Shown: one piece after another, positions 1,331-40,390 of the stretch
Position numbering within the stretch: position 1 is the stretch's first letter
How the letters are laid out: each line of letters starts with the position of its first letter
IMG/VR virus record: IMGVR_UViG_2778261455_000003
Coordinates: 1-40,957 of that record
DNA length: 40,957 bases
Source of the DNA: a virus
Lineage: Duplodnaviria > Heunggongvirae > Uroviricota > Caudoviricetes
Strand: one strand, 5' to 3'
Program-made: the position numbers and the translations under genes
Notes under the pieces: model-generated
Told to the model about the DNA's origin: nothing
What the model saw: only the letters and a program-made list of their open reading frames with translations
Databases searched by the model: none

Positions 1331-1345
1331 GCTTTTTTATACTAA
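1331..1345. other. attL core (GCTTTTTTATACTAA), followed by P' arm with arm-type Int sites
   Basis: Core followed by GTTGGCATTATAAAAAAGCATTGCTTATCAATTTGTTGCAACGAACAGGTCATTATCAGTCAAAATAAAATCATT, matching the lambda attP P' arm with a few substitutions. Confidence 0.85.
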
Positions 1346-3250: not shown

Positions 3251-3805
3251 GTTAACCTCCTGCGGCGGTTCTGGTAGCGGCATCCAGTGTGTGACGTTGC
3301 GGCTCTGCGTTTCGAAAAATTCATCACCATCACGGACGACATCAAAAAACTCACCGTCTCGATATTGCGCATAAAGAACGAATGCGCCATCACATAAAAT
3401 AATTACGTGCTGACCATCATCTGGCATTCGATCACTACAGCTTATCCAACCATCCGGAGTTACCGGAGAGTTGCCATTCACAAGGTCAGCTCGAACATAT
3501 AGTGTGTCATCATGGTGCTGATTGTGGCTGCACCACGTTAATTCGCTTAACTCGCCATCTTCTGGCCATACTCCAGCTGTTTGCAGCCAGATATGGGCTG
3601 GCGCATCTTGGCAAGGTGTATTAACTGGCAACTTGTAAGTTTGGCTTACAGGTTCTGCACTATCAGCTTCGCGCCGCTTCTGTAGCTCTGCTGCCATCGC
3701 TCTCACAACTTCAACTGGTGCCCTTGCAGCAAACTCTATGTTGGTGATCAGCTCATTAAGATATTGCTCGCCTGGATACTGTTTCTTATCGGTTATAGTG
3801 GTCAT
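3242..3805 (-). CDS. Hypothetical protein with DUF551-like C-terminal segment (…THWMPLPEPP)
   Basis: 187-aa ORF with RBS TAAGGTGA; C-terminal motif shared with the ORF at 20468..20683. Confidence 0.55.
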   Translation of the reverse strand: MTTITDKKQYPGEQYLNELITNIEFAARAPVEVVRAMAAELQKRREADSAEPVSQTYKLPVNTPCQDAPAHIWLQTAGVWPEDGELSELTWCSHNQHHDDTLYVRADLVNGNSPVTPDGWISCSDRMPDDGQHVIILCDGAFVLYAQYRDGEFFDVVRDGDEFFETQSRNVTHWMPLPEPPQEVNRG

Positions 3806-3807
3806 AG

Positions 3808-3999
3808 CTATTTCACCTTAATCTCAACATTTCGCAGCTTTAGCTCTACTGGCAGGTCTGACTTTCCGGTTAATGCTAATGCGAGATTTTCTGGAGTAAT
3901 GAGAGCCGTTATTGTTTTCCCCATCGACAGACGAATAATCATTCGTATCTCGCGATCGTCACATGCTCCCGGTCGAACAATTGAGATTTGTCCGTTCAT
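3808..3999 (-). CDS. Small hypothetical protein (63 aa)
   Basis: Internal ATG MNGQISIV… preceded by AGGAGAG; directly abuts the stop of the upstream gene. Confidence 0.4.
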   Translation of the reverse strand: MNGQISIVRPGACDDREIRMIIRLSMGKTITALITPENLALALTGKSDLPVELKLRNVEIKVK

Positions 4000-4000
4000 A

Positions 4001-4630
4001 TCACTCTCCTTTGATGCGAATGCCAGCGGCGCGCTCGGATTCACTTTGTTCCCAAAACCACTTGTGAAGCTCCATAAGCTTTTCGTCAATCGGTGCATAT
4101 TTGCGATTAAAGTAGGCCTGAGCATCTTTCTCAGATTCGTCCGGCAATTCGCCAGGGCCAAACAGTGTGTTATAAATCCATGCCAGTCCGCTCTTAGCGT
4201 CGCCAGTTGCCTGCCATTCGATAATCGCAGCCTGCATGACCAGAATGTTTTTCCCGATTAACAGGTCCAGTTCTTTGAACCGGTTGCGGATGTATGCATT
4301 CTCGCTTTGTAATTTTGCGTTGCGCTTCTCTGCGGCTTCCAGCTCAACACGCAGCTTCCCTACCGTTAGCGCAATTTCCTCGTTCTCCTGATCGCGGAGT
4401 TTGATGTATTGCTGGTTCCTTTCCCGTTCATCCAGTAGCGCCAAAGCAACCTTTGGATTAAAGGCAGCAATAAATTCAGCGTTGTTTTTCAGAACGTGTT
4501 GCGCAATCGCCTGACTACTTAGTCGGACCTCATAACCACGTGCGCCACGGTGTGGTTTATATGAGTCCCAGTCTCCCCACGTTGCTTTCTCTGCCGCCTC
4601 ACGCAGTGCCTGATAGTCAATCTTGCTCAT
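4001..4630 (-). CDS. Hypothetical early protein, possibly Ead/Ea22-like
   Basis: 209-aa ORF with RBS AGGGTGA; position and charged repetitive composition resemble Ea22-type proteins; family assignment is from recall only. Confidence 0.45.
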   Translation of the reverse strand: MSKIDYQALREAAEKATWGDWDSYKPHRGARGYEVRLSSQAIAQHVLKNNAEFIAAFNPKVALALLDERERNQQYIKLRDQENEEIALTVGKLRVELEAAEKRNAKLQSENAYIRNRFKELDLLIGKNILVMQAAIIEWQATGDAKSGLAWIYNTLFGPGELPDESEKDAQAYFNRKYAPIDEKLMELHKWFWEQSESERAAGIRIKGE

Positions 4631-4931: not shown

Positions 4932-5470
4932 TGGTTGCCTCCTTTGCGAAGCTGGGCAGCAAAGTCAACTAACCACTCAGTCATTTCAACCTTCCCTACC
5001 AGGTCTGAACCAGGGTGCATACAGCAATCACTTTGCGCCGCTTTGAAATCCTTATACTCATATTCTTGGGCCACCAGATTTTTTGCAGCTTCTATAGCAG
5101 CATCCACCCCCTGCGCCCGAACTTCAGCCAGGAAAGCATCGGTGGCTGGGGTTTTGATTTCGTTAAGCGCATCACTGAATCCACCACGCTCCATACCTAG
5201 CTCTGCTTCGTAATCGGCATCGAATGCAGCGTCTTTGCAGAACTTCTTCATCCCCGCACTCTCCGCTGCCAGCGCCGCGCACTTGGCCTCAAGGTTATCA
5301 ATCGTGATTCCAGCAGAACGACACTCCCGCAACGCCGTTTCTAGTTTTGATTCAAGTTCACCGAACTTACGGACAAGATATTCAGCGTTTGTTTCGTTAA
5401 CCTTTAAATCTCGTGGGATGCATTTACCTTTCAGAAAACCATCCATCTCAATTAGTGACATTTGTTTCAT
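4928..5470 (-). CDS. Hypothetical protein (about 180 aa), possibly Ea22-like
   Basis: [15 protein letters not shown]… preceded by GGAG; its start overlaps (ATGA) the stop of a 54-aa upstream ORF. Confidence 0.45.
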
Positions 5471-5631
5471 TTTTTCCCACTCCGCCACATCGCATTCAGA
5501 TATTTGTTTTGATTCACTGATGGGAAAGAATTTCTCTTAAGTAATTCCTCTCTCGATGGCATTGGCTTTACGCGTTGGCGAATAATCATTTCTGCCGGAA
5601 GAATGCCGGGATTGTATGCAAGTCCTCTCAT
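5467..5631 (-). CDS. Small hypothetical protein (54 aa)
   Basis: Strong RBS AAAGAGGAA before the [41 protein letters not shown]…; found by manual translation. Confidence 0.3.
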
Positions 5632-5647
5632 GGTAAATTCCTCTTTG

Positions 5648-5962
5648 TTAATTTATTCGTATGCCTGCTCTTTCTTCATCGAGTTTTTTTAGCTTGTATC
5701 GCATAGCTCTTACTGAATAAATTGAGCGGCAGGTTGCAATTGCTATTTCTTCTGCGGAGAACTTACCGAAAAGTGATACTTCGGCTCTTGTCCAGCGTCT
5801 TCCACGAAGTCGGCTAACAATGTCAGCGCCAATCCTTGTTGCTTTCGCCATAACTGCTTTTTCAGTCCTTTCCAGTTTTTCAGCGATAACTTCAACTGGC
5901 ATTGTCGCCGCCACTTCGCGCAAGAAATCGACTTCCCATTTCTCCCATGGAGTCTTTTTCAT
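5648..5962 (-). CDS. Hypothetical protein (104 aa), two helix-turn-helix-like repeats
   Basis: Two similar segments beginning WEKWEVDFL… and WTRAEVSLF…, suggesting a tandem small DNA-binding fold; inference only. Confidence 0.4.
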
Positions 5963-5973
5963 AGTCGATACCG

Positions 5974-6462
5974 TTATTTGATAAGAAGTGAAGGTTTCCC
6001 AACCTTGAGTTGAGCGCCTGGGATATTTATTCCTGCTTTTAGTTGGTGCTTGATTGCCAACTTGTCGGCTTTAATTGTCGTTTCAAACTCAACGTATTCA
6101 GGAGGAAGGGCGCTTGAGTCGATGATTTCTACAGTTTCTGACGGTTTGCGGATTGTTACCTGGTGAATACCTGCTCGAATCTTTTTCTTGCCAACCATTT
6201 CAAGCGATGACGCTATATATGATTTGATGCTGTCAATCTTATTTTGAATTACTGTGGCTCGCTCATTCAGTGATTTTGCCTCTTCCTTGAGGCGTTCGGC
6301 ATAACCAGATTCATTTTTAATGACGGAAAGAAGTTGCTCTATTTTATCGGTAAATTCTCCTTCCATGCCTTCTATTGTGTCAGCAATCATCTCTGGTTCT
6401 AAATCTGAATCCATCAATTTTGCGTATTCATTGGCAATTTCATACAGTTTGCTCACTGGCAA
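5974..6462 (-). CDS. Gp157-like protein (siphovirus Gp157 family), RecT-associated
   Basis: 162-aa coiled-coil-rich ORF directly downstream of and overlapping recT; family assignment from recall. Confidence 0.45.
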   Translation of the reverse strand: MPVSKLYEIANEYAKLMDSDLEPEMIADTIEGMEGEFTDKIEQLLSVIKNESGYAERLKEEAKSLNERATVIQNKIDSIKSYIASSLEMVGKKKIRAGIHQVTIRKPSETVEIIDSSALPPEYVEFETTIKADKLAIKHQLKAGINIPGAQLKVGKPSLLIK

Positions 6463-7342
6463 CCTCCAGTTTCGCTTTGCATTCTGCGTAAATGGCTTGT
6501 ACGTTCTGCTGCAATTTCATTCCAGATGTCAGGCGATATGCTTCTGCAAAATACCTCTTCAAATCATCCATGTTTTCAGCCTGAGCCATTTCATCACAAA
6601 GAAGTTGTGCTTTTTCCATTATTTCCTGCTGGCGTTTCCGTTCATCTTCGCGGATATCTTCCTCTGATTTGTGCGGCATAACCGGTTCCTGATGCATACC
6701 CTCATCTTCGTTAAGCAGGTGAATGGCATTATCCAGTCGCTGGGCTTTAGGCCAGTATTTGCTGGCGCGTTTAACTATGGTTTTACGCGCCATCTCTTCC
6801 CAGAATGTCTTCCACGGTCCATTCTTTGCCTTGCTCGTTGCTTCCACAGCTTTAATTTCTGCCAGACTCATTTCTTCAGTCAGGTAGTCACCATCTGCTG
6901 TTTTAACCGTGCAATAACCTCCAACAATAGAGCCTCGCTCACCAAATGCGTTGTATTTGTGGGTTGGTGCCGAATCAAGGCCATTTGATTCATAGGTGTC
7001 GTTTGAGTACACCAGTTTGCATTGCCCCCACTTAATTGATCCTGTCGATTGCGCAAGATGAAGTAATCCCATGTAACTGATATCAAGGCACACCATGCCG
7101 TCGCGAGGAACCAGATAAGCCAGTTTGCTGGCCGGGTTTAAGGTGATGCCGATCGCCGCAACATTGATGATGGCGTTCTGTGCGCTGGTTGGATTTGCCA
7201 GTGCTGTTTTAGCCAGGTAATCATTTTTCTGGAAATACTGAATTGCAAACTGGCTTTCCTTAGCCCATGTCACCGTCTGTTCAGTCAATGCTCCGCAGAA
7301 TAACTGCTCTTGCTGTTTAACGAATTCAACGATATTGCTCAT
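6440..7342 (-). CDS. recT: RecT-family single-strand annealing recombinase
   Basis: 300-aa ORF; segment NGPWKTFWEEMARKTIVKRASKYWP matches the conserved RecT motif NGPWVTHWEEMAKKTAIRRLFKYLP. Confidence 0.8.
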   Translation of the reverse strand: MSNIVEFVKQQEQLFCGALTEQTVTWAKESQFAIQYFQKNDYLAKTALANPTSAQNAIINVAAIGITLNPASKLAYLVPRDGMVCLDISYMGLLHLAQSTGSIKWGQCKLVYSNDTYESNGLDSAPTHKYNAFGERGSIVGGYCTVKTADGDYLTEEMSLAEIKAVEATSKAKNGPWKTFWEEMARKTIVKRASKYWPKAQRLDNAIHLLNEDEGMHQEPVMPHKSEEDIREDERKRQQEIMEKAQLLCDEMAQAENMDDLKRYFAEAYRLTSGMKLQQNVQAIYAECKAKLEVASEQTV

Positions 7343-7650
7343 GCAGCTTCTCCATAAATATGTCTGCGTTTGAATATTGCGAAGGCATATTCAGCCTTAA
7401 CTCTTTCGGTTATTGCATCCCAGAACCATTCAGCGGCTTTTTCCTGATAGTTACAGTCATCATCTTCCAGCCAGTCGATAGCGTCCTTAGTATGTTCATC
7501 TGGTTTATATGAGCGAAGCATTTCGCTTATTGGGTCGCAACGTTTGCAGAGGCGATCAACTTCACTGTTGATTCGTTCGTAATCTTCATCAGTAAAACTT
7601 GCGATTATTTGCGATATTTCACGCTTATCATTCAGAGTCAGAATCATCAT
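7339..7650 (-). CDS. Hypothetical acidic protein (103 aa)
   Basis: ORF whose stop overlaps the recT start; no recognisable family. Confidence 0.4.
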   Translation of the reverse strand: MMILTLNDKREISQIIASFTDEDYERINSEVDRLCKRCDPISEMLRSYKPDEHTKDAIDWLEDDDCNYQEKAAEWFWDAITERVKAEYAFAIFKRRHIYGEAA

Positions 7651-7731
7651 CTTTCTCCTGTTCTTTGTGCTGATTGAGCATTTCTTTCATCTGACGAATG
7701 AATTCTTCGTCTAACCAGTTATCTGTAAAAC

Positions 7732-7884
7732 TCATTTCCTGCGATACCACGGAAGGTTGATAGCTGATTTCATCGCTTTATTTGCTTCAAGCCACATTTT
7801 TGAATCACCAATAAATCTGGCTATTACTGCTTTGTTCTGTGCAGCACGAAGCATCTGGTGATTAATGGCTATTTCATTGCGCAT
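7732..7884 (-). CDS. kil: Kil-like small protein (host cell-division inhibitor family)
   Basis: 50-aa ORF MRNEIAINHQMLRAAQNKAVIARFIGDSKMWLEANKAMKSAI…; resembles lambda Kil (…TIATFIGDEKMFREAVDAYKKWI…) and lies beside cIII as in lambda. Confidence 0.5.
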   Translation of the reverse strand: MRNEIAINHQMLRAAQNKAVIARFIGDSKMWLEANKAMKSAINLPWYRRK

Positions 7885-8003
7885 AACGCCTCCAGTTGTT
7901 TCTTTGCTGCTCTGATTAATTGTTTAACTCGGCGTGATAATTCAGATTCGTGCGGGTAGAAAGCGGACATGACGCCGCTACCCGCGAGCTGAAAGTGCAT
8001 CAT
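7869..8003 (-). CDS. cIII: cIII-like protein (FtsH inhibitor family)
   Basis: 44-aa ORF with RBS AAGGAG; MMHFQLAGSGVMSAFYPHESELSRRVKQLIRAAKKQL… has the lambda cIII pattern (…AIAGWPVAGCPSESLLERITRKL…). Confidence 0.55.
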   Translation of the reverse strand: MMHFQLAGSGVMSAFYPHESELSRRVKQLIRAAKKQLEALCAMK

Positions 8004-10001: not shown

Positions 10002-10370
10002 TTAGTCAGCGAAGGTTAAGACGAGAATTACCTTAATGATGTCTGCTACAACAGACACGGCCATAGATAAACCAAAGACGATCCAAGCCACAGTGATGTC
10101 TTCACTACCATCGTATAGAGTTCCGTAATCACTGGTGTAAGGCGTAAATGTCGCGCCTTGATACAACAGGTATAAGCTTGATCCATAGAGGATAAATGCA
10201 GATATCCCTTGTATTGCTATGACCACTAGAATCATGAAACGAGCTGATCTATGCGCCCAAGCCTGGCTTATTTTTTCTGATAGAGATTTCGCAATAAAAG
10301 CATGCGCTAAGCCGTAAATTGTTGAGATTGCCAACATCCCAAAAAAGCTTGCTATAGCGGTTCCAACCAT
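10002..10370 (-). CDS. Small multi-pass membrane protein co-transcribed downstream of cI; unknown function
   Basis: ATG preceded by AAGGGGAG, 15 nt after the cI stop; about 122 aa with three long hydrophobic segments; occupies the rexAB position relative to cI and N. Confidence 0.55.
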   Translation of the reverse strand: MVGTAIASFFGMLAISTIYGLAHAFIAKSLSEKISQAWAHRSARFMILVVIAIQGISAFILYGSSLYLLYQGATFTPYTSDYGTLYDGSEDITVAWIVFGLSMAVSVVADIIKVILVLTFAD

Positions 10371-10387
10371 AAGCTCCCCTTGCGTGA

Positions 10388-11104
10388 TCAAACCAGCCTT
10401 AGTTTTGTCTCAATTGCAACGCCTATAATCTTGCAGTTTCCATTGATTGGCACGAGAGGCCATGCAGGATTAAGTCCCTTGAGGTATTTATTTCCGCCGT
10501 CGATTATCAGCTTCTTGAATGTTGCTTCGTTAGAGTCAGAAAGTTTTGCTATGACCAAGCTGCCGTTGATCGCCTCCCTTCCGGTATCGAAAAGAACGAA
10601 TGTCCCCTCTGGGATGCTTAACCCAACCGGTGCCGTCATTGAATCACCTTCCACTTTAAGCCAGAACGCATTACCTTGAATATGCGCGTCAGACTCAAGC
10701 CAAACATCTATGTCTTTAATGGTGTATGGTTCGCATGCTTCACACCACGAGCCAGCCTGGATACTGCTTAACACCGGATACCTCTTTCCTGCTCTGTATT
10801 CCCCTGCATACCTTACGTTGGCATCGCTCTTAAGGCTTTCTGCCTGTTCTGCAACCTTGGCAGCAATTGACTGGCTAAAATCAGCAATTGAGACTTGCAA
10901 CAAACGTGCAAAACCAGATGCGACCTCAACGTTTAGCGCGTTTCTGCCATTAAGATAATGCCCTACCGCTCCTTGGGTGATACCCAGTTCATCAGCGATT
11001 GAGTATTGGGTTATTCCCAATTCTTTCTTTTTTGACTCATACAAAGCCTTAAGCCGCTTAGCGTCTTCGAGCTGTTCTGTCGTCAGTGATTTTTTATTTT
11101 CCAT
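10388..11104 (-). CDS. cI: CI-type prophage repressor (HTH plus LexA-like S24 domain)
   Basis: 238-aa ORF; N-terminus …LTTEQLEDAKRLKALYESKKKELGITQ…, similar to lambda cI …[27 protein letters not shown]…; C-terminal GDSMTAP / FKKLI motifs. Confidence 0.9.
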   Translation of the reverse strand: MENKKSLTTEQLEDAKRLKALYESKKKELGITQYSIADELGITQGAVGHYLNGRNALNVEVASGFARLLQVSIADFSQSIAAKVAEQAESLKSDANVRYAGEYRAGKRYPVLSSIQAGSWCEACEPYTIKDIDVWLESDAHIQGNAFWLKVEGDSMTAPVGLSIPEGTFVLFDTGREAINGSLVIAKLSDSNEATFKKLIIDGGNKYLKGLNPAWPLVPINGNCKIIGVAIETKLRLV

Positions 11105-14176: not shown

Positions 14177-14428
14177 ATGATGACATATCCGCACATTTTA
14201 GAAATTCACGAAAAGGCGGCAGCGATTAACGCAGGACGAAAGCCTCAGTTTGGGGACAAAATGCGAAACCTTGTGGCCGGTGAAGACAACCCGCGCCGCG
14301 ATGCCTACTTCGTGAAACAGAAAAGAGTGACAGGACGAATGAATCCCGGGCTCTGGTACACGATGACAGACCGCAAAGGTAACTTCTGGGACTCCTGTCC
14401 GAAAGGCCTGATTTTCATTGACGAGTGA
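14177..14428 (+). CDS. Hypothetical protein (83 aa)
   Basis: ORF in the ren/nin-equivalent region. Confidence 0.4.
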   Translation: MMTYPHILEIHEKAAAINAGRKPQFGDKMRNLVAGEDNPRRDAYFVKQKRVTGRMNPGLWYTMTDRKGNFWDSCPKGLIFIDE

Positions 14429-14706
14429 TGGAGAGTGATATGGACGAATCAAGAAAGCAGTTTGAAGAATGGTTTGAAAACAAATATCACGTTTCAAGTG
14501 ACGTGATGAAGATTATGCACATCAAGGTCGAGATTGCATGGGAAGCGTGGCAGGCATCGCGAGCAGCTATTGAAATTGAGTTGCAAAAGCCAAAGAAAGG
14601 CCCACTTCCCGGTGATTATCACATTGGCTATGACTCAGGTGCAGAATCACAATACGAAAGCGATGTAGAGGCCATCCGCGCTGCTGGAGTTAAAGTGAAG
14701 GAGTGA
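14425..14706 (+). CDS. Hypothetical acidic protein (93 aa)
   Basis: ORF overlapping the stop of the upstream gene. Confidence 0.4.
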   Translation: MMESDMDESRKQFEEWFENKYHVSSDVMKIMHIKVEIAWEAWQASRAAIEIELQKPKKGPLPGDYHIGYDSGAESQYESDVEAIRAAGVKVKE

Positions 14707-14708
14707 GT

Positions 14709-14846
14709 ATGAGACTGAAGATACTAGGCTGGCACATCTCGATATCATGGCAGCCGAAAACCAAGTGGGGGTATTTCTCGTTTTGGCATGATGGACCCAT
14801 GAGAGCATTCTGGATAGGCCACATCGTAATAGAGTGGTGGTGGTGA
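14709..14846 (+). CDS. Small Trp-rich hypothetical peptide (45 aa)
   Basis: Strong RBS GAAGGAG 6 nt before the ATG; stop overlaps the ninB start; not in the ORF track because it is under 60 aa. Confidence 0.25.
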   Translation: MRLKILGWHISISWQPKTKWGYFSFWHDGPMRAFWIGHIVIEWWW

Positions 14847-15256
14847 TGAAGCAGACAATCTTCCTTCGAAGTAAGCAGCAACAGCAAGCCGCAATCAACG
14901 CCATCCTCGCAACACCACTCGATAAAGACAAGCCAGTCACCATCCGCATTACTGACTACAAGCGCAACATTGACCAGAACGCAAAATTTCACGCGATGCT
15001 GGCGGATATCGCACGTCAGGTTCAATGGTGCGGCAAATGGTTAAAACCGGAACAATGGAAGGTTTTGTTGATCAGCGGTCATGCAGTGGCAACAAAACAG
15101 GAAGCTGATGTTTTGCCCGGCCTTGAAGGTGAATACGTCAACATTCGCGAAAGCAGCGCGCAGATGAGTGTGAAGCGTATGGCAAGTCTGATTGAGTACA
15201 CGACAGCATGGGCTATTGGTCAGGGTGTCAGATTTACCGACAGGAGGTACGAATGA
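14846..15256 (+). CDS. ninB: NinB-family recombination protein
   Basis: 136-aa [30 protein letters not shown] resembles lambda NinB RSLDQNRKLWACLGDVSRQVEWHGRWL. Confidence 0.8.
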
Positions 15257-15429
15257 GACGACAGCGACGAAGTATCACCGACATCATCTGCGAAAACTGC
15301 AAATACCTTCCAACGAAACGCTCCAGAAATAAACGCAAGCCAATCCCAAAAGAATCTGACGTAAAAACCTTCAACTACACGGCTCACCTGTGGGATATCC
15401 GGTGGCTAAGACATCGTGCGAGGAAATGA
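15253..15429 (+). CDS. ninE: NinE-like small protein
   Basis: 58-aa ORF after [67 protein letters not shown]; identity from recall. Confidence 0.5.
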
Positions 15430-16376
15430 CGATGACTGCGTATTACAACGAAATAGATCCGTATGCAGCGCAATGGCTGCGTAACTTAATTGACGCTGGA
15501 GAAATTGCCCCCGGTTATGTAGATGAAAGGAGTATTGAAGATGTCACACCAGGTGATTTGCGAGGATTTACCCAGCACCACTTTTTTGCAGGAATCGGAG
15601 TTTGGAGCTATGCACTTAGAAAAGCAGGATGGCCAGACAACAAGAGTATCTGGACAGGAAGTTGCCCATGCCAACCTTTCAGCTCGGCAGGCAAAGGAAA
15701 AGGGGTTGATGACGAGCGGCACTTATGGCCGGCATTCTTCTGGCTTATTGAAAAATGCAATCCTGGCATCGTTATTGGCGAACAGGTTGCAAGCGCAGAC
15801 GGCCTCGCTTGGCTCGACCTTGTACAAACTGACTTGGAAGGTGCGAACTACACCTCTGCAGGTACCGATATTTGCGCTGCGGGCTTCGGTTCTCCGCACA
15901 TCAGGCAGCGATTGTATTGGGTGGCCTACTCCAACGACAAATATCAACTTTCAGCCAGAGACGCGCAGGGGAATTCAGAACCTATCTGGATGCGTGAGAC
16001 TAGCGGGATGGCAAACTCCTTTAGCGAACGATGCAACAGGTTCAACGCATTGCTACAGCGGAAAAGACAAGAGCGGAACCCCAAGAATCTGCTTGAAACT
16101 TCCCGGGACGGTGAAGCTATGTACCCATTACCGGTTAACGGCTTCTGGAGAGATGCAGACTGGCTTTACTGTAGAGATGAAAAATATCGTCCAGTTAGAC
16201 CCGGCTCATTCCCGATGGTTAATGGCATTGCCAAAAGCTTGGGACGAGGCAAGTCCACACTGGGAAGAATGGCAAAGCGCAATCAAGATCAGCGAATTAT
16301 TGGATATGGAAACGCAATCAATGCAGAAGTAGCAACGGCATTCGTGAAAGTTTGTATGGAGGTTGTTAATGCTTAG
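15426..16376 (+). CDS. DNA (cytosine-5) methyltransferase, orphan
   Basis: Motif I-like FFAGIG, catalytic PCQPFS, and an ENV-like EQV segment; no restriction-endonuclease-like ORF adjacent. Confidence 0.75.
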
Positions 16377-16548: not shown

Positions 16549-16930
16549 CCGATATGGACAAATAACGTTTAAACATTTTCAAGACAATCCAACATGGGCT
16601 GCTGCGGCTGGATATGACTTTAATTATTTTGATTGTCTGTCAGTCGCATGTATTGCAACTACCAATGTTGCTAACAACATAATCGATGAATTCTTGGATT
16701 TTCCAGAATATCAGGTCAGAGAGTTGCCTGCATTTTTTGTGAAAGTATCTGTTGCTACAGCTCTGTTATTTATTTTGTTATTCGCATATCCATTGCTTGC
16801 CGTATTTGTTTATGTGAGATGCAAGCACTCACAAAAGGAATACAGCGGAGAGCATACCGATATTACCAGCACAAATATGCGAGTGTGGTTGAGGAGATGC
16901 CAAGAGAATTGGGGGAGACGTCATGGCTAA
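16538..16930 (+). CDS. Hypothetical protein with one hydrophobic segment (130 aa)
   Basis: ORF overlapping the ninF stop; putative transmembrane helix ATALLFILLFAYPLLAVFVYV. Confidence 0.4.
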   Translation: MVISRYGQITFKHFQDNPTWAAAAGYDFNYFDCLSVACIATTNVANNIIDEFLDFPEYQVRELPAFFVKVSVATALLFILLFAYPLLAVFVYVRCKHSQKEYSGEHTDITSTNMRVWLRRCQENWGRRHG

Positions 16931-17213
16931 CCTACGCAAAGAAGCGCGCGGCAGAGAATGCCAGGTACGTATTTACGGCGTATGCAATGGCAACCCTGAA
17001 ACTACAGTTCTGGCACATTACCGGATGGCTGGAATTTGCGGAACGGGAATGAAGCCTGACGACCTGATCGGTGCATGGGCTTGTAGTGCGTGTCACGATG
17101 AAATCGACCGACGCACCCATAATCTCGACAACAAAGACGCCAGACTTTACCACCTCGAAGGCGTGATCAGAACGCAGGCGATACTGCTGAGGGAGGGGAA
17201 GATTAAGTCATGA
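16923..17213 (+). CDS. DUF1364 / YbcO-like putative nuclease
   Basis: MANLRKEARGRECQVRIYGVCNGNPETTVLAHYR… resembles DLP12 YbcO (MADLRKAARGRECQVRIPGVCNGNPETSVLAH…); followed by rusA as in DLP12. Confidence 0.65.
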   Translation: MANLRKEARGRECQVRIYGVCNGNPETTVLAHYRMAGICGTGMKPDDLIGAWACSACHDEIDRRTHNLDNKDARLYHLEGVIRTQAILLREGKIKS

Positions 17214-17572
17214 ACGAATATCAGTTTGTGCTTCCATACCCGCCGTCGGTGAATACCTACTGGCGAAGACGGGGAAGCCAATATTACATAAGCGATAAAG
17301 GCCAGAAATACCGAAAAGACGTTCAGCAAATCATCCGCCAACTCAAGTTAGACATTTTCACCAAATCACGACTCCGTATCAAAGTCATCGCAGACGTTCC
17401 AGACTCCCGCCGCCGCGACCTCGACAACATCCTGAAAGGTTTACTCGACTCCCTTATCCACGCCGGATTTGCGGAAGACGACGAGCAATTCGATGACATT
17501 CGCGTAATTCGTGGTGTGAAAGTACCAGGCGGACGGCTTGGAATAAAAATCACCGAACTGGAGAACGCATGA
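17210..17572 (+). CDS. rusA: RusA-type Holliday junction resolvase
   Basis: 120-aa ORF containing the conserved RRRDLDN motif; overall resemblance to E. coli RusA. Confidence 0.85.
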   Translation: MNEYQFVLPYPPSVNTYWRRRGSQYYISDKGQKYRKDVQQIIRQLKLDIFTKSRLRIKVIADVPDSRRRDLDNILKGLLDSLIHAGFAEDDEQFDDIRVIRGVKVPGGRLGIKITELENA

Positions 17573-17757
17573 ACGCCACAATTCAAACGATACCAGAGCT
17601 TCTTATCCAGACACGAGGCAATCAGACCGAAGTGGCAAGGATGCTTTCCTGCGCAAGAGGAACAGTGCTCAAGTACAACCGAGACAGCAAAGGCGAGCGT
17701 CACGTAATAGTTAACGGCGTCCTGATGGTCAAACAGGGCAAGAGGGGAAGACGATGA
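17569..17757 (+). CDS. ninH: NinH-like small DNA-binding protein
   Basis: …NQTEVARMLSCARGTVLKYNRDSKGERHVIVNGVLMV… resembles lambda NinH. Confidence 0.6.
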   Translation: MNATIQTIPELLIQTRGNQTEVARMLSCARGTVLKYNRDSKGERHVIVNGVLMVKQGKRGRR

Positions 17758-35455: not shown

Positions 35456-35576
35456 CCTTGATGCCTCACCAATTGGGTGGAATGGCATCGTAACTTACTG
35501 GATAAATACTCAATAGTACCATTTCGGTATGCAATCACATCATGGTTGCATCATATCATTCGTCTGGAGCAATGAA

Positions 35577-37958
35577 ATGTCAGATATCACCGCAAATGTT
35601 GTGGTAAGCATGCCTTCGCAACTCTTCACTATGGCTCGTTCTTTTAAAGCGGTTGCCAATGGCAAAATTTATATCGGAAAAATTGACACTGACCCGGTAA
35701 ATCCTGAAAACCAGATTCAGGTTTATGTGGAGAACGAAGACGGCTCTCACGTTCCTGTTTCGCAACCAATCATCATTAACGCTGCTGGATATCCGGTATA
35801 TAACGGACAGATTGCAAAATTCGTTACCGTGCAAGGCCATTCTATGGCTGTGTACGATGCGTACGGTGCGCAGCAGTTTTATTTTCCAAATGTGCTGAAG
35901 TATGACCCTGATCAATTCCGTATATACTTTGACAGAGTTATGCATGATATGGCAAAGCCTATAACATATTTTGGGGCCGTACCTGGTGAAGACTGCTCTG
36001 AAGCATTGGAGTCGGCTTTGCATACTGGATTACCATTCTTTTTCCCGGACGGTGAATGGGTTGTAAACAAGAAGATAATATATACAGGAAGTTTCCAGAT
36101 GTTTGGGGTTGGGAATGCGGTTATTAAATCAGACAAGATGTTTGAATTTACTGACGCCAATAATTCAGTTATTGCCGATCTCACCTTCCAGACAATCAGT
36201 GTTCCGTACGTTATTAAGCGTGACACTACTGCATGGGATGCAACAGTATCAGATGTTAAGCAGTCACGAGATGGGTATCAACCAACATCATTGGATACTG
36301 ATATATGGGATGCGCTTCCGCAAATTATTAAAGACCAAGCAATAAATAGAACGATTGAATGTGGAGCAAAATTTTTCTCATCTACATCTTCAGGAGTAGA
36401 CAATGTCAACATTCTGCGAGTTTCCGGGCTTGGTGTTGCATTTGAAATTTATGGTTCTAAAAATTCAGTTGCTAGTGATTGCAGCATAACCGGAAACAGT
36501 AGAGATGCTATAACATTTATAAACGATACTGTCTTCAACGGAATTTCATTGCCGCGAGGCACAGGAAATAGGGCGGTAAATAACAACGTAACCTACGCTT
36601 CGCAGTGCGGTATATCATGGTGGGGGCAGGATGAATTTTTATGTGATGGCAATAATACACAATATTGTGGCGAATCAGGAATAAAAATTTATCAATACGA
36701 TACCAACCATCCAGTATCAATTGTCAGCAAAGGAAGTCGCATAGTTAACAACTATTCAGCATACAATTACTACGATGGCATTGATGCTCAGGTATGGTAT
36801 CCGCCAGCAACAGATCCGGGTGTGGTAGCTAGAAACGTTATAAAAAACAATATATCAATAGGTAGCAGACATACAGGAATAACTTCTAACGGCGGTCAGG
36901 AATTAGTTTCAGGGAACCATTGCCGAAGTACTGGTGGGTCTGGTATTAGAATTGTCTCAAACAGAAGTGTTATTGAAACGAATATTGCAACTGATTGTGC
37001 CAATGCATCATCACAGCACTCATTCCAGATTTTTGGTATGAGCATCCAAGGTGATGGTATTATTTCTATAGGTAACAGGGTTAATAATTCATCATCTCCT
37101 GCGAGCACCTATGATTATTTGCATACTGGAATAAATGGAAACGATCCAGCATCCGGGGATCCCGGGCTTGATTTTGGTAATACCTGTAGCGCAGGACCGG
37201 ATGTGATGTTTATTTCTAATAATATCACATCGTCAATGTCTGAGTTTCTTGTTGGAGCTTCCTCTAAAACAAATACATTTAACGCTTCGTTAATAGCCAG
37301 AAAAAACGGCTATGGCGTTGATCTTTGCGGTGGTAACGGGGAGGGTTCGGTAAACATACGTGGAGATGCTACATTTGGGGCGAGTATTAATTTTCAGCCT
37401 GTTTCCGAAGATCCTTCAACAACCACCCCTAAAGGTGGTCTGAGATACAGCTTTTCAGCAAAAAAACTTATCATCTCAACTGAGAGAGAAGCAAAAGTCG
37501 AAATTGGCGAGACTGCCGGAGTATATCCAACAGCGGACAATAGCATCGGACTTGGCCTGCCATCAAATCGATGGACAGCAGTTTATGCTGCAAATGGAAC
37601 AATTGTCACATCAGATGGGAGACTAAAATGTAATGAAAGAAGTTTGAGTGAAGCAGAATTAGCAACAGCTAACGCATTAAAGAATATGATTAAAGCATAT
37701 AAGTTTACCGAATCCGTTGAAGGTAAAGGTGAAAATGCAAGGATTCATTTTGGCGTTATCGCTCAAGAGGTTATTAAGGCATTTAACGCAAATGGTCTTG
37801 ATGCTTTTAAATATGGAATAGTCTGCTATGACGAGTGGGATTCTCAATCAGATCTAAAAGATTCCTCAGGAAATATAATCACTCCAGAAATAAAAGGCGG
37901 TAATAGATACGGCATTAGATATGATGAATTATTGTGCTTCATCATTGCTGCACTATAA
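35577..37958 (+). CDS. Tailspike protein: P22-type head-binding N-terminus, divergent central domain, C-terminal auto-chaperone-like segment
   Basis: N-terminus [47 protein letters not shown]… matches the P22 tailspike head-binding domain; the rest is unrelated to P22, Ser/Asn/Gly-rich, and ends with a segment (…[23 protein letters not shown]…) resembling intramolecular chaperone domains. Confidence 0.85.
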
Positions 37959-37984
37959 AAAAAGGGGCATTAGCCCCTTTTTTT
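37957..37984. terminator. Bidirectional intrinsic terminator between convergent tailspike and acyltransferase genes
   Basis: AAAAAAAGGGGC-ATTA-GCCCCTTTTTTT: a perfect GC stem flanked by an A-run and a T-run. Confidence 0.6.
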
Positions 37985-39899
37985 ATTCGAATATTTCCTT
38001 TCTGTATTTATCTACTATGTAAGTAGATCCTGCCTCTGTAAGATGCCCCCAATCAACAGCAGTTATACCTTTTGGTCCTTCTGATGTTCTTGTAAGACAA
38101 CCACCATCTCCACACATAGCCGAATATGGTGAAACGTAATCCACTCCAAGCGTTGGAATATTCTTTTTGAGAAAATCATCCCATTCCTTAATCTGAGGCT
38201 TTAATCCATCCTTCATGTAGCGTGGAGGTTCATTATGATTATTTGTATAGTACAAGACTATTTGTTTTATAAGGCTTTCATCCCACTCAGGCACAGGACC
38301 AACAACAATGATTTTTGATTCAGGAGAAGCAAACTTAATCTTTTTAATTGTTTCATTAAGAGATAAGATGGCCTGATTCTTATCAAATATAGCATTCTGA
38401 CCTTCAACCATCCATGATATTATAATTTTCTTCGGCTTATACATTTCAACGAAATTTAATCTCTCATTATTTGCATCTGTGAGAGTTTTTAGTGTATCTG
38501 TCTTTCTGTTGTCAAAATAGAAAGGAGGCCCATTCCCATCGGTCATCTGGCTAATGAAAACATCTTTGTAATACTTGTCGCTAACATTTTTCAATCCGCT
38601 ATATAAAGCGGCAGCGTATGAATCACCCCATATAAATATTTGATTATCGCTCTTAGCTACGCAACCACTACTTACTGCAACCTCTGGTGTTACAGAGTGG
38701 CATTTATTGCTTCTCATTAAATTTGGGTAATCGAAAAAATCATAAACGTTAATTATTGAGCTATATTCCTTGGCTATTTCGTTAATCTTTCTATCTTGTA
38801 TTCCATTATGCTTATATACGTACAGTCCAGCCTGGCCAACTATGAAAAGAATGATGGCGGAAACAGCAGCATTATAACCCCTATGCTTTCCAAACCTTAC
38901 TTTACGCTCAACTAAGTAAAACGATAGGAACGCTAAAATCATTGAGGCGAAAATTATAAAAATACCGTTCAGTAAGTCTATATCGCTTGCCGTTTTCAAC
39001 TTGTAGAAAACTATTAAAGGCCAGTGCCACAGGTAAAGCGGGTAGCTAATTAATCCAATGAATACAAATAACTTATTAGACAGCAGACGCCCAACACAAC
39101 TATCATTGCCATAACACACTATCATAGCAGTACCAGCAACAGGAACCATTGCAATGTATCCCGGGAAATTCATTTTGCTGTTTATAAAAAACATTGAAAA
39201 AACAATCAAAATAAAACCAATTACCGGCACGATAATATTAAGCGTGGATTTTCTATTACCCCCATCTCTGAATGTTAGAGATATGGCAGCCCCTGTCATT
39301 AATTCCCATAATCTCGTTAAAGGAGAGTAATAGCTTACACTTTGGTTATGTATTGTTTCATATATACAATATAGCAGGCTTGCTATAAATAATAACATTA
39401 TGTAAATTCTTGCAGAATTCTTTCTTTTGACAATAAGAAGTATTAATGCAGGCCATATTATATAGAATTGCTCCTCAACACCCAAAGACCATAGGTGTAG
39501 CAATGGTTTCAATTCAGACGCTGTATCAAAGTATCCTGACTCAAGAATATATCCTATATTAGCAACGAAGAATGCGCCTGTAAAAACGTTCTTTCCTAGC
39601 GAGGCGTATTCACTCTGAAGAAGGAAGAACCAACCATAAATTAATGAAGCTGCCAGAACAGCAATCAGAGATGGGAATATTCTTAGCGCTCTTCTTTTAT
39701 AAAATTCAGTGTAACTGAATTTATTAGTAAGTGCTTCACTATAAATAATGTTTGTTATAAGGTATCCAGATATAACAAAGAATATATCAACACCAACGAA
39801 TCCACCTGGTAGAGTGCTTGGGAAAATGTGATAAACAATTACTGACAATACAGCAATTGCTCGTAGCCCATCGATATCAGGTCTGTATTTTATAGACAT
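37983..39899 (-). CDS. Membrane acyltransferase (AT3 domain plus C-terminal SGNH-like domain); probable O-antigen acetyltransferase
   Basis: 638-aa ORF with about ten hydrophobic segments in the N-terminal two-thirds and a soluble C-terminal domain; markedly AT-rich compared with neighbouring phage genes. Confidence 0.8.
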   Translation of the reverse strand: MSIKYRPDIDGLRAIAVLSVIVYHIFPSTLPGGFVGVDIFFVISGYLITNIIYSEALTNKFSYTEFYKRRALRIFPSLIAVLAASLIYGWFFLLQSEYASLGKNVFTGAFFVANIGYILESGYFDTASELKPLLHLWSLGVEEQFYIIWPALILLIVKRKNSARIYIMLLFIASLLYCIYETIHNQSVSYYSPLTRLWELMTGAAISLTFRDGGNRKSTLNIIVPVIGFILIVFSMFFINSKMNFPGYIAMVPVAGTAMIVCYGNDSCVGRLLSNKLFVFIGLISYPLYLWHWPLIVFYKLKTASDIDLLNGIFIIFASMILAFLSFYLVERKVRFGKHRGYNAAVSAIILFIVGQAGLYVYKHNGIQDRKINEIAKEYSSIINVYDFFDYPNLMRSNKCHSVTPEVAVSSGCVAKSDNQIFIWGDSYAAALYSGLKNVSDKYYKDVFISQMTDGNGPPFYFDNRKTDTLKTLTDANNERLNFVEMYKPKKIIISWMVEGQNAIFDKNQAILSLNETIKKIKFASPESKIIVVGPVPEWDESLIKQIVLYYTNNHNEPPRYMKDGLKPQIKEWDDFLKKNIPTLGVDYVSPYSAMCGDGGCLTRTSEGPKGITAVDWGHLTEAGSTYIVDKYRKEIFE

Positions 39900-40375: not shown

Positions 40376-40390
40376 GCTTTTTTATACTAA
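40376..40390. other. attR core (GCTTTTTTATACTAA), preceded by the P arm with arm-type Int sites
   Basis: Upstream …CAGGTCACTAATACTATCTAAGTAGTTGATTCATAGTGACTGGATATGTTG… resembles the lambda attP P arm; downstream CTTGAGCGAAACGGGAAGG is the bacterial B' side. Confidence 0.85.

What the first reader, a model, noticed from the sequence alone, without database searches (positions are those of the whole stretch)
5974..7342. RecT/Gp157 pair with no recognisable exonuclease partner
RecT-family annealing proteins usually sit beside a 5'-3' exonuclease (RecE, lambda Exo or YqaJ type). Here recT is flanked only by a Gp157-like protein and small unknown ORFs, so the exonuclease is either supplied by the host or one of the unknown neighbours is a cryptic nuclease or recombination modulator.
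Basis: inference. Interest (0 to 1): 0.4.

Follow-up and report, generated by a model that had tools for sequence, protein, structure and literature searches.

The report
Exonuclease-less RecT recombination module of prophage
This is the recombination gene cluster of a complete P22/lambda-like E. coli prophage, in which the RecT strand-annealing protein is paired with a Mu-Gam-like DNA-end-binding protein instead of an exonuclease; this arrangement is already catalogued and fairly common, but its mechanism has not been tested.

Summary
RecT (6440-7342, minus strand) and a Sipho_Gp157 protein (5974-6456, minus strand) overlap, and no lambda-Exo/YqaJ or RecE-type exonuclease, or remnant of one, exists in the 39-kb prophage (att cores at 1331 and 40376).

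This is not an anomaly. The same module, about 93% identical in DNA, occurs in phages HK140, mEpX1, Kapi1 and Gally and in 265 of 5426 complete E. coli genomes. A 2025 survey already lists HK140 as "SAP-4 + MuGam, no nuclease" and reports that 84 of 246 enterobacterial lambdoid Rec modules lack a nuclease.

The neighbours look like recombination modulators, not nucleases:
- **Gp157** is a remote Mu Gam homologue.
- **The 104-aa downstream protein** belongs to the P22 Abc1 / Mu gp9 family.

Two further points come from this analysis:
- In 80 related loci the gene after recT is either YqaJ (58) or Gp157 (15), never both.
- The Redbeta-type Exo-binding C-terminal domain of RecT is replaced by a different domain exactly where Gp157 replaces Exo.

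Most likely the phage encodes end protection and annealing, and the host supplies resection. That mechanism is inferred, not shown.

The parts
7339..7647 (-). 102-aa acidic protein (pI 4.65) with a lambda-Gam-like fold; candidate RecBCD inhibitor. Annotated 'hypothetical' everywhere (phrog_3486, no Pfam).
6710..7342 (-). RecT annealing core (residues 1-211)
   Evidence: It matches PF03837 at E=2.5e-33 and the solved RecT 7UB2 over residues 34-204 at E=7e-5. It is 77-84% identical to the cores of YqaJ-partnered RecTs L032-L035 and 48% identical to those of ENT47670 and Midgardsormr38.
6440..6709 (-). RecT C-terminal domain 'CTD-B' (residues 212-300) plus stop codon. It replaces the Redbeta-type Exo/SSB-binding domain.
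   Evidence: It has no PDB match. The Exo-partnered relative ENT47670 has a CTD that matches the Redbeta CTD of PDB 8TFU and 6M9K at E=3e-30. CTD-B is present in 15 of 15 RecTs followed by Gp157 and in 0 of 58 followed by YqaJ. The breakpoint lies just after the RLDxAI motif.
5974..6456 (-). Sipho_Gp157 protein (160 aa, GTG start), a remote homologue of Mu Gam; predicted dsDNA-end-binding dimer sitting in the slot normally held by Exo.
   Evidence: It matches PF05565 at 1.2e-38 and phrog_253 'Mu Gam-like end protection' at 6.4e-55. Two family members hit Pfam Phage_Mu_Gam over the full length: the Listeria member at E=3.2e-6 and the Pantoea PA-1 member (59% identical to this one) at E=0.088. 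hhalign against Mu Gam gives E=9e-4, colinear over 40-155 versus 46-161. The AF2 model (pLDDT 81) has a long helix 21-87 followed by a small beta domain. GGAGG precedes the GTG, and the gene overlaps recT by 17 nt.
5648..5962 (-). 104-aa basic (pI 10) protein with two helix-turn-helix repeats, of the P22 Abc1 / Mu gp9 family. Accessory recombination protein of unknown molecular function.
   Evidence: It matches phrog_323 at 2.8e-20. P22 Abc1 matches the same family at 1.3e-23 and Mu gp9 at 5.2e-29. Phage Gally annotates the identical protein 'similar to P22 Abc1'. An Abc1-like gene follows Gp157 in 6 of 15 loci and follows YqaJ in 4 of 58. BLASTP against P22 Abc1 finds nothing.
7628..7750 (-). 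40-aa acidic ORF between kil and the Gam-like gene, in the position of P22 arf. Membership of the module is uncertain.
   Evidence: It matches phrog_17766 at 1.5e-14. Its N-terminal 21 aa match phrog_2123, which is labelled 'recombinase'. It shows no similarity to P22 Arf.
5467..5631 (-). 54-aa homologue of P22 orf56 (DUF2737). It marks the downstream edge of the module, as in P22.
   Evidence: It is 75% identical to P22 orf56 and matches phrog_1117 at 4e-38.
1331..1345 (+). Lambda att core (attL); left boundary of the prophage.
   Evidence: Exact copy of GCTTTTTTATACTAA, repeated at 40376-40390. None of 100 shuffles gave two matches.
40376..40390 (+). Lambda att core (attR); right boundary of the prophage.

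Best explanation
The finding is the Rec (homologous recombination) module of a complete, apparently intact P22-like lambdoid prophage of the HK140/mEpX1/Kapi1 type.

It holds four adjacent genes of the leftward early operon; the first three overlap. In order of transcription they are:
- a lambda-Gam-fold protein;
- RecT;
- a Mu-Gam-like Gp157 protein;
- an Abc1-family protein.

The phage encodes no exonuclease.

Proposed mechanism:
- The Gam-fold protein blocks host RecBCD (inferred from fold and gene position).
- A Gp157 dimer binds the double-stranded ends of the linear, terminally redundant phage DNA, as Mu Gam does. It protects them, and the Gp157-specific C-terminal domain of RecT brings RecT to them (inferred).
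- RecT anneals complementary single strands to circularise and repair the genome (family function).
- The single-stranded DNA is produced by host functions such as RecJ with a helicase, or by replication, as in P22, whose Erf/Abc module also lacks a nuclease (inferred).

Shown here: the gene identities, the absence of an exonuclease, the either/or relation between Gp157 and YqaJ after recT, and the domain swap in RecT. Inferred: all biochemical activities and the RecT-Gp157 contact.
For: The whole prophage is in view and has no YqaJ or RecE homologue or remnant. It carries a P22 gp3-type small terminase, which implies headful packaging. It has no Chi site, as published for lambdoid phages that encode anti-RecBCD functions (PMC12315714).

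The module is conserved in infectious phages and in 265 complete E. coli genomes.

In 80 species-level loci with related RecTs, the next gene is YqaJ in 58 and Gp157 in 15, never both. Exo-partnered RecTs carry the structurally characterised Exo/SSB-binding Redbeta CTD (26 of 58). Gp157-partnered RecTs all carry a different CTD (15 of 15), with the breakpoint inside recT.

Gp157 genes lie next to annealing proteins of four families (RecT, Erf, Sak4, Rad52-like) in 10 of 10 sampled phages, as also noted in PMC8093625.

An upstream Gam-type gene coexists with Gp157 in 11 of 15 loci, so Gp157 is probably not just a second RecBCD blocker.

Precedent: the published HK140 module type and the P22 functional type.
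Against: - No experiment exists on this RecT, on Gp157 or on the Gam-fold protein.
- The window's own Gp157 does not reach Pfam Phage_Mu_Gam (no hit at E<=0.1), and the Mu Gam link is remote.
- Fold searches with the Gp157 model were dominated by its long helix and showed no Ku or Mu-Gam fold.
- The Gp157-partnered RecT cores form roughly one clade. The 15/15 covariation may therefore reflect a single ancestral exchange plus physical linkage, and the Fisher p-value overstates independence.
- An end-capping protein could hinder resection rather than help it, so its cooperation with RecT is not self-evident.
- The host nuclease is unidentified.
Confidence: 0.55

Rival explanations
1. Gp157 is only an anti-RecBCD end protector, as classified in the published survey. 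It would have no specific partnership with RecT. The link between the RecT C-terminal domain and Gp157 would then be plain physical linkage from one ancestral mosaic junction.
For: Gp157 is homologous to Mu Gam, whose known role is to block nucleases at DNA ends. PMC12315714 lists the HK140 protein as MuGam anti-RecBCD. The Gp157-partnered RecT cores are roughly monophyletic.
Against: - 11 of 15 Gp157 loci already carry a Gam-type gene upstream, which would make Gp157 redundant.
- The junction lies inside recT, exactly at the boundary of the domain that binds Exo in relatives.
- Gp157 and YqaJ never co-occur after recT in these 73 loci.
- Gp157 is adjacent to annealing proteins of unrelated folds across phyla.
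Confidence: 0.25
2. Gp157 is a non-canonical exonuclease or resection factor that functionally replaces lambda Exo/YqaJ.
For: Gp157 occupies the Exo slot and is mutually exclusive with YqaJ. The partner-binding domain of RecT is swapped along with it. There are weak Foldseek matches to phage PD-(D/E)XK and RecB-like proteins (E=0.043 and 2.6).
Against: - Across ten diverse members, the conserved polar residues are D26, K38, E59, K78, D131/K132 and G142/G147.
- These form no recognisable nuclease motif, and no histidine is conserved.
- The architecture is a long helix plus a small beta domain, like Mu Gam, which is not an enzyme.
- The Foldseek matches are not significant.
- Vibrio phage D53 has a Gp157-like gene with an annotated recombination exonuclease 1.7 kb away.
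Confidence: 0.1
3. The module works without any end resection. RecT would act only on single-stranded DNA exposed at replication forks. The Gam-fold protein, Gp157 and the Abc1-like protein would merely keep linear and rolling-circle DNA intact.
For: RecT/Redbeta-family proteins alone support oligonucleotide recombination at replication forks (established knowledge; context in PMC8093625). The phage carries two predicted end- or nuclease-blocking proteins.
Against: A headful-packaging, terminally redundant genome must be circularised from its double-stranded ends. This needs exposed complementary strands. P22 Erf is needed for exactly this step (established knowledge).
Confidence: 0.07
4. The module is a decayed Red/RecET system that has lost its exonuclease and is no longer functional.
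For: No exonuclease is present.
Against: - All ORFs are intact, with overlapping start and stop codons and a good Shine-Dalgarno sequence.
- No exonuclease remnant is present.
- The module is carried by plaque-forming phages (HK140, mEpX1, Kapi1, Louie, Dewey) and by 265 complete E. coli genomes.
- The arrangement persists across at least ten enterobacterial genera, with protein divergence down to about 50-60%.
Confidence: 0.03

Closest known systems
HK140/mEpX1-type Rec module ('SAP-4 + MuGam, no nuclease, no SSB') in the lambdoid Rec-module survey of 2025 (Genome Res, PMC12315714)
   Same: It holds the same genes. The window is 92-93% identical in DNA to HK140, mEpX1, Kapi1 and Gally over 5600-7900, and the 102-aa and 104-aa proteins are 99-100% identical. 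The survey already states that SAP type 4 occurs with no nuclease and with MuGam in HK140.
   Different: The main text of the survey names only MuGam as the anti-RecBCD function of HK140. It scores SEN22, which carries the same 102-aa protein, as having none. The Gam-fold protein therefore appears not to have been recognised there. That is an inference, because the supplementary tables were not available. The survey explicitly left partner-domain shuffling unanalysed.
Phage P22 recombination module (arf-erf-abc1-abc2)
   Same: It occupies the same genomic slot (kil ... orf56, eaE) in a P22-like genome. It has an annealing protein plus anti-RecBCD accessories and no phage exonuclease. It shares an Abc1-family gene and the flanking orf56/EaE homologues.
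   Different: RecT replaces Erf. There is no Abc2 (phrog_656) and no Arf homologue. The window has a Gam-fold protein and a Mu-Gam-like protein instead, which predict blocking of RecBCD rather than the Abc2-type hijacking of it.
Lambda Red (gam-bet-exo) and phi80 gamL-recT-exo
   Same: Gene order is the same: Gam-type gene, annealing protein, partner gene. The phi80, Cronobacter ENT47670 and Erwinia Midgardsormr38 versions use a RecT core of the same subfamily (48% identity for the latter two). ENT47670 and Midgardsormr38 also carry a homologue of the same 102-aa protein.
   Different: The third gene here is Gp157, not a YqaJ/lambda-Exo nuclease. RecT also lacks the Redbeta-type C-terminal domain that binds Exo and SSB (PDB 6M9K, 8TFU).
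Phage Mu Gam (Ku-like DNA-end-binding protein, Pfam PF07352)
   Same: Length is similar. The long N-terminal helix is seen in the Gp157 model, and a leucine zipper is reported for Mu Gam (PMC12407980). Sequence similarity is colinear but remote. An Abc1-family gene is adjacent in both: Mu gp9 lies next to gam.
   Different: Gp157 belongs to a separate Pfam and PHROG family (PF05565, phrog_253, versus PF07352, phrog_491). The window protein does not reach the PF07352 threshold. End binding is untested. Mu Gam is not coupled to an annealing protein.
orf157-Sak4 and Gp157-Erf modules of Firmicutes phages (Sfi11, Listeria, Staphylococcus)
   Same: The same Gp157 family lies directly beside the annealing protein, usually with no exonuclease in the module (noted in PMC8093625).
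   Different: Those annealing proteins are Sak4 (RecA-like) or Erf. Gp157 usually precedes them, and an SSB gene is usually present. Here Gp157 follows RecT and no phage SSB is seen.

Membership tests
RecT family (Pfam PF03837) | Profile match above the curated threshold over the annealing core | tested here: met
   115.7 bits against a cutoff of 24, E=2.5e-33, residues 31-214. Matches the solved RecT 7UB2 at E=7e-5.
RecT family (Pfam PF03837) | Single-strand annealing activity | not testable with these tools
   The ORF is intact, and 90 columns are invariant in the full-length alignment with four relatives down to 41% identity.
Two-component SSAP + 5'-3' exonuclease recombinase (lambda Red / RecET / YqaJK type) | A YqaJ/lambda-Exo or RecE (PD-(D/E)XK) exonuclease gene next to the annealing protein | tested here: not met
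   No Pfam or PHROG nuclease lies in the operon. The six-frame HMM scan of the whole prophage gave at best 8.8 bits.
Two-component SSAP + 5'-3' exonuclease recombinase (lambda Red / RecET / YqaJK type) | An exonuclease-binding C-terminal domain on the annealing protein (Redbeta-CTD type, PDB 6M9K) | tested here: not met
   The Exo-partnered relative ENT47670 matches the Redbeta CTD at E=3e-30. The window RecT has no such match.
Sipho_Gp157 (Pfam PF05565) | Full-length profile match above threshold | tested here: met
   133.1 bits against a cutoff of 28.6, profile positions 1-162 of 162.
Mu Gam / Ku-like end-binding proteins (Pfam PF07352) | Profile match above threshold | tested here: not met
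   The window protein has no hit at E<=0.1. The Listeria family member scores 27.6 bits against a cutoff of 28.3 (E=3.2e-6), and PA-1 scores E=0.088. hhalign gives E=9e-4. The relationship is remote homology, not membership.
Mu Gam / Ku-like end-binding proteins (Pfam PF07352) | Dimer that binds dsDNA ends and blocks exonucleases | not testable with these tools
   Only a monomer model is available: long helix plus beta domain. Fold searches were uninformative.
Lambda Gam host-nuclease inhibitor (Pfam PF06064), tested for ORF 7339-7647 | Profile match above threshold | tested here: not met
   No Pfam hit. hhalign gives only a local match, E=4.5e-4 to 1.5e-3.
Lambda Gam host-nuclease inhibitor (Pfam PF06064), tested for ORF 7339-7647 | GamS fold | tested here: met
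Lambda Gam host-nuclease inhibitor (Pfam PF06064), tested for ORF 7339-7647 | Gene located between kil and the annealing-protein gene, interchangeable with gam | tested here: met
   Lambda Gam or phi80 GamL replaces it in phage Dewey and in 10 of the 80 loci.
Lambda Gam host-nuclease inhibitor (Pfam PF06064), tested for ORF 7339-7647 | Conserved N-terminal helix motif (M-x-A-Y...DRIE-x-Q-x-W) shared by lambda Gam and GamL | tested here: inconclusive
   Lambda Gam and GamL share this motif (E=3e-8). The window protein aligns there with GamL only weakly and lacks the Y and W.
Lambda Gam host-nuclease inhibitor (Pfam PF06064), tested for ORF 7339-7647 | Binds and inhibits RecBCD | not testable with these tools
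   No assay is possible. The absence of Chi in the prophage is consistent with inhibition.
P22 Abc1 family (phrog_323), tested for ORF 5648-5962 | Profile match shared with P22 Abc1 | tested here: met
   The window protein scores 2.8e-20, P22 Abc1 1.3e-23 and Mu gp9 5.2e-29, all to phrog_323. The matched profile ranges only partly overlap, and BLASTP finds nothing.
P22-type nuclease-less Rec module (annealing protein + anti-RecBCD) | Abc2 RecBCD hijacker | tested here: not met
   No ORF resembles Abc2. No window ORF scanned against PHROGs hits phrog_656, the Abc2 family.
P22-type nuclease-less Rec module (annealing protein + anti-RecBCD) | Annealing protein plus at least one anti-RecBCD candidate, no nuclease, in a headful-packaging lambdoid phage | tested here: met
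   This matches class C 'P22' of PMC12315714.

The most novel reading that the evidence does not exclude
Gp157-family proteins are not just nuclease blockers. They would be dedicated cofactors of phage annealing proteins. A Ku-like end binder would dock on a purpose-built C-terminal domain of RecT and form an 'end binder + annealase' machine. This machine would replace the classical exonuclease + annealase pair and would hand ends to host resection, or join terminally redundant ends directly. In addition, the unannotated 102-aa protein would be a third sequence type of lambda-Gam-fold RecBCD inhibitor, missed by current catalogues.
Probability: 0.3. Interest if true: 0.6.

Novelty: already known. 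Interest (0 to 1): 0.3.

Why it matters
For the question as posed, the answer is ordinary. Nuclease-less Rec modules are common in lambdoid phages, and this exact module has been catalogued.

Three residual points have practical value:
- **Annotation of the 102-aa protein.** It is annotated 'hypothetical' in every phage record examined. If it is a Gam-type RecBCD inhibitor, modules currently scored as lacking anti-RecBCD (for example SEN22) would need re-scoring.
- **The RecT domain swap.** The Exo-binding domain of RecT is swapped together with the partner gene. This gives a concrete, testable handle on how annealing proteins choose partners, which matters for porting recombineering systems between hosts.
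- **Defence systems.** End-binding proteins such as Mu Gam were recently proposed to license the Gabija defence system (preprint PMC12407980). Prophages of this type may therefore be predicted Gabija targets.

Tried and rejected
- **PDB sequence-profile searches.** Searches with Gp157 and with the RecT C-terminal domain gave nothing significant. The best hit for the latter was GapR/UPF0335 at E=0.19.
- **Mu Gam homologue search.** The large-database search listed only close relatives (at least 72% identity), so the Mu Gam profile stayed shallow.
- **Wider locus scan for Gp157.** The survey of Gp157 contexts therefore rests on the ten sampled phages.
- **Abc1 by BLASTP.** The 104-aa protein shows no hit to P22 Abc1. 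The link rests on the shared PHROG profile.
- **Arf.** The 40-aa ORF shows no similarity to P22 Arf.
- **RecT core tree.** The first neighbour-joining tree contained three artefactual entries (L037, L046, L061, truncated by my own parsing). I identified and disregarded them.
- **YbcO-like nin gene (16923-17213) as the missing nuclease.** Rejected. It lies in the nin region next to Q and not in the Rec module, and PHROGs labels its family as HNH endonucleases (phrog_131), not 5'-3' exonucleases.
- **Supplementary tables of PMC12315714.** They are not held.
Full report
**Context**

The window holds a complete prophage. Exact copies of the lambda att core GCTTTTTTATACTAA lie at 1331-1345 and 40376-40390. 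They are flanked by host genes: a pectinesterase-like gene, which I take to be ybhC, and a PBP-family gene, which I take to be ybhB.

The prophage has lambda-like int and xis (judged by eye from the translations), a cI-like repressor (also judged by eye), and N, cIII and kil. It also has an O/DnaC-type replication pair and a P22-type packaging module: the gp3 small terminase and a P22-type tailspike head-binding domain. The rest of the virion block was recognised by gene order and size only. It is therefore a mosaic P22-like lambdoid phage that packages DNA by the headful mechanism.

The finding lies in the leftward early operon, on the minus strand.

**Checking the observation**

- ORF 6440-7342 is a RecT-family protein (PF03837 E=2.5e-33; phrog_148 7.7e-92). 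Its core also matches the solved RecT 7UB2.
- ORF 5974-6462 is a Sipho_Gp157 protein (PF05565 E=1.2e-38 over the full profile).
- The true Gp157 start is the GTG at 6456. It follows a GGAGG, matches the 160-aa length of homologues, and overlaps the end of recT by 17 nt.
- The recT ATG overlaps the stop codon of the upstream gene (ATGA).

No exonuclease is present:
- Every ORF of the left and right early operons was scanned against Pfam, PHROGs or both.
- A six-frame stop-to-stop scan used a 57-sequence YqaJ model and a DUF3799 (RecE-like) model. The best score was 8.8 bits, so there is not even a pseudogene remnant.
- The only nuclease-like genes are a YbcO-like gene in the nin region (16923-17213) and the large terminase.

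**The neighbours**

*Upstream, 7339-7647 (102 aa, pI 4.65).*
- It has no Pfam match and belongs to a PHROG of unknown function.
- Its family is small. There are 27 clusters in the word-indexed search and 48 clusters at 50% identity in the exhaustive search. Most of the latter are stand-alone proteins of about 100 aa.
- The family has no invariant residue, which argues against an enzyme.
- An AlphaFold2 model from 33 sequences is confident (pLDDT 90.6, pTM 0.77) and consists of five helices.
- Profile comparison finds a local match to lambda Gam in the motif DDDxx(F/Y)QExAAE (E=1.5e-3 and 4.5e-4). It finds a weak, near-full-length match to phi80 GamL (E=0.003).
- The gene sits where lambda has gam. 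In phage Dewey and in several genomes a bona fide lambda Gam (PF06064, phrog_259) or GamL (phrog_1050) takes its place.
- I conclude that it is a divergent Gam-fold protein and probably a RecBCD inhibitor. The activity itself is inferred.

*Gp157.*
- PHROGs labels its family 'Mu Gam-like end protection'. I tested that label.
- The window protein itself does not hit Pfam Phage_Mu_Gam.
- A Listeria member of the Gp157 family does hit it, over the full length, at E=3.2e-6 (27.6 bits against a cutoff of 28.3). The Pantoea PA-1 protein, 59% identical to ours, hits it at E=0.088.
- hhalign of a diverse Gp157 alignment against Mu Gam gives E=9e-4, colinear over 105 columns.
- The model (pLDDT 81) has a helix of about 65 residues followed by a small beta domain.
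- Fold searches were dominated by that helix and gave nothing useful.
- Across ten diverse members there is no conserved set of acidic or histidine residues that would suggest a nuclease.
- Gp157 is therefore best read as a remote Mu Gam relative, not a member of PF07352.

*Downstream, 5648-5962 (104 aa, pI 10).* It matches phrog_323 at 2.8e-20. P22 Abc1 (1.3e-23) and Mu gp9 (5.2e-29) match the same family. Mu gp9 lies immediately upstream of Mu gam. The next gene, 5467-5631, is the homologue of P22 orf56, which marks the end of the module as in P22.

**Comparison with related loci**

The module is 92-93% identical in DNA to phages Kapi1, mEpX1, HK140 and Gally. It occurs in 265 of 5426 complete E. 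coli genomes.

Informative variants share the same flanking genes:

| Phage | Genes in the slot |
|---|---|
| This window, HK140, mEpX1, Kapi1, Gally, PA-1 | 102-aa protein, RecT, Gp157 |
| Dewey | lambda Gam, RecT, Gp157 |
| SEN22 | 102-aa protein, DUF3799 nuclease, 189-aa protein |
| Cronobacter ENT47670, Erwinia Midgardsormr38 | 102-aa protein, RecT, YqaJ exonuclease |
| phi80 | GamL, RecT, Exo |

A scan of one genome per species returned 80 loci with related RecTs. I annotated them with HMMs built here:
- The gene after recT is YqaJ in 58 loci and Gp157 in 15. It could not be assessed in 7. No locus has both.
- A Gam-type gene (any of the three kinds) precedes recT in 11 of the 15 Gp157 loci.

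**The RecT domain swap**

- RecT cores (residues 1 to about 211) are 77-84% identical between our RecT and the nearest YqaJ-partnered ones, L032-L035. Similarity stops just after the RLDxAI motif.
- The C-terminal 73 residues of the Exo-partnered ENT47670 RecT match the Redbeta C-terminal domain at E=3e-30. That domain was crystallised with lambda Exo (6M9K) and with the SSB tail (8TFU); this description of the two entries rests on my knowledge of the literature.
- 26 of the 58 YqaJ-partnered RecTs have this domain. None of the 15 Gp157-partnered ones does.
- All 15 Gp157-partnered RecTs share the C-terminal domain of our protein at 50-80% identity; one of these, L052, has a frameshifted recT and keeps only a partial, weak match. 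None of the 58 YqaJ-partnered RecTs has it.
- That domain has no PDB relative.

Caveat: the Gp157-partnered cores form roughly one clade. The pattern may therefore derive from one ancestral exchange, and the Fisher p-value should not be read as 15 independent events. The stronger points are qualitative:
- The junction lies inside recT, at the edge of the domain known to bind the exonuclease.
- The arrangement has persisted across at least ten enterobacterial genera.

**Gp157 elsewhere**

In ten sampled phages from six bacterial orders, the Gp157 gene sits at or within one gene of an annealing protein:
- Sak4 in Sfi11, Listeria LP-HM00113468, Klebsiella VLCpiS13c and Roseburia Jekyll.
- Erf in Staphylococcus SN8 and Bacillus 055SW001.
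- RecT in Pantoea PA-1.
- A probable Rad52-like protein in Vibrio D53.
- In Pseudomonas Orisa03 the neighbour is annotated only 'putative DNA repair protein' and has no Pfam hit, so its family is unknown.

A module exonuclease is usually absent. A 2021 survey of Firmicutes phages made the same observation for erf and sak4 (PMC8093625).

**What is already published**

A 2025 Genome Research paper (PMC12315714) classified the Rec modules of 325 lambdoid phages. [quoted passage not shown] It reports that 84 of 246 enterobacterial modules lack a nuclease, and that phages encoding anti-RecBCD functions have few Chi sites. It left partner-domain shuffling 'beyond the scope'.

The present prophage fits that picture: it has no Chi site inside the att sites.

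The survey's main text appears not to recognise the 102-aa protein. It names only MuGam for HK140 and scores SEN22 as lacking anti-RecBCD, although both phages encode this protein. I could not check the supplementary tables.

**Mechanism and verdict**

Shown:
- the gene identities;
- the absence of an exonuclease;
- the alternation of Gp157 and YqaJ after recT;
- the exchange of the Exo-binding domain of RecT.

Inferred:
- The Gam-fold protein blocks RecBCD.
- Gp157 binds DNA ends like Mu Gam and works with RecT through the new C-terminal domain.
- Host functions expose the single strands that RecT anneals to circularise the terminally redundant genome. This parallels P22, whose Erf/Abc module also has no nuclease and whose erf mutants need host RecJ (as summarised in PMC5499656).

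Rivals are that Gp157 is only an end protector, that it is a cryptic nuclease, that no resection is needed, or that the module has decayed. I weigh these in the rival-explanations section. The cryptic-nuclease and decay readings have little support.

The finding is real, but it is an already catalogued module type. Two modest additions come from this work: the Gam-fold assignment of the 102-aa protein, and the coupled swap of the RecT C-terminal domain with its partner gene. Both are worth a bench test.

Noticed in passing
L006:1483-1782 and 1802-2326 (phage Mu); window 5648-5962 and 5974-6456: An Abc1-family gene (phrog_323: Mu gp9, P22 Abc1, window 104-aa protein) lies directly beside a Mu-Gam-type gene both in Mu and in this prophage. 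In the 80 RecT loci an Abc1-like gene follows Gp157 in 6 of 15 and follows YqaJ in 4 of 58. This may be a conserved functional pair, and the function of Abc1 is still unknown.
   Followed up: partly
L003:2863-3432 and 3432-4253 (Salmonella phage SEN22): In SEN22 the same flanking genes enclose a DUF3799 PD-(D/E)XK nuclease plus a 189-aa protein with no Pfam match (phrog_11517), with no recognisable annealing protein. SEN22 also carries the Gam-fold 102-aa protein at 96% identity, although the published survey scores it as lacking anti-RecBCD.
   Followed up: partly
L013:2597-3367 (Vibrio phage D53): The gene annotated 'exonuclease' next to a Gp157-like gene has only a weak Rad52_Rad22 match (E=1.2e-3) and no nuclease domain. 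It is probably a misannotated annealing protein.
   Followed up: partly
window 1331-40390: There is no Chi site (GCTGGTGG) on either strand within the 39-kb prophage. The only Chi site in the window lies in the flanking host gene, at 40772. This is consistent with the published link between anti-RecBCD genes and lack of Chi.
   Followed up: yes
window 15390-16376, 16923-17213, 14834-15256: The nin region carries a C5 cytosine DNA methylase, a YbcO-like putative nuclease (labelled HNH in PHROGs) and NinB, the Orf recombination mediator.
   Followed up: partly
window 37983-39899 (-) and 35529-37958 (+): An AT3 + SGNH acyltransferase gene, transcribed convergently, lies just downstream of the tailspike gene and just inside attR. 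I suspect an O-antigen modification gene, but this was not tested. The tailspike has a P22 head-binding domain and a Peptidase_S74 chaperone domain.
   Followed up: no
window 10002-10391 (-): A 129-aa predicted membrane protein (phrog_6534, unknown function) is encoded between the cI-like repressor and N. I recall that lambdoid phages often carry exclusion genes at this position.
   Followed up: no
window 14198-14497 (-) and 17323-17703 (-): Two minus-strand ORFs inside the rightward early operon have no Pfam or PHROG match. They may be moron genes or chance ORFs.
   Followed up: no
window 5974-6456, residues 4-7 of Gp157: The extreme N-terminus L-(Y/F)-x-(I/L) is conserved in all ten diverse Gp157 proteins, from Firmicutes to Proteobacteria phages, whichever annealing protein is adjacent. 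It may be a contact motif for something common to all, such as DNA or a host protein.
   Followed up: no
L002 985-1524; L007 1400-1939; Louie record: HNH homing-endonuclease genes are inserted at different points in or near this early-left region in phages Dewey, PA-1 and Louie.
   Followed up: no
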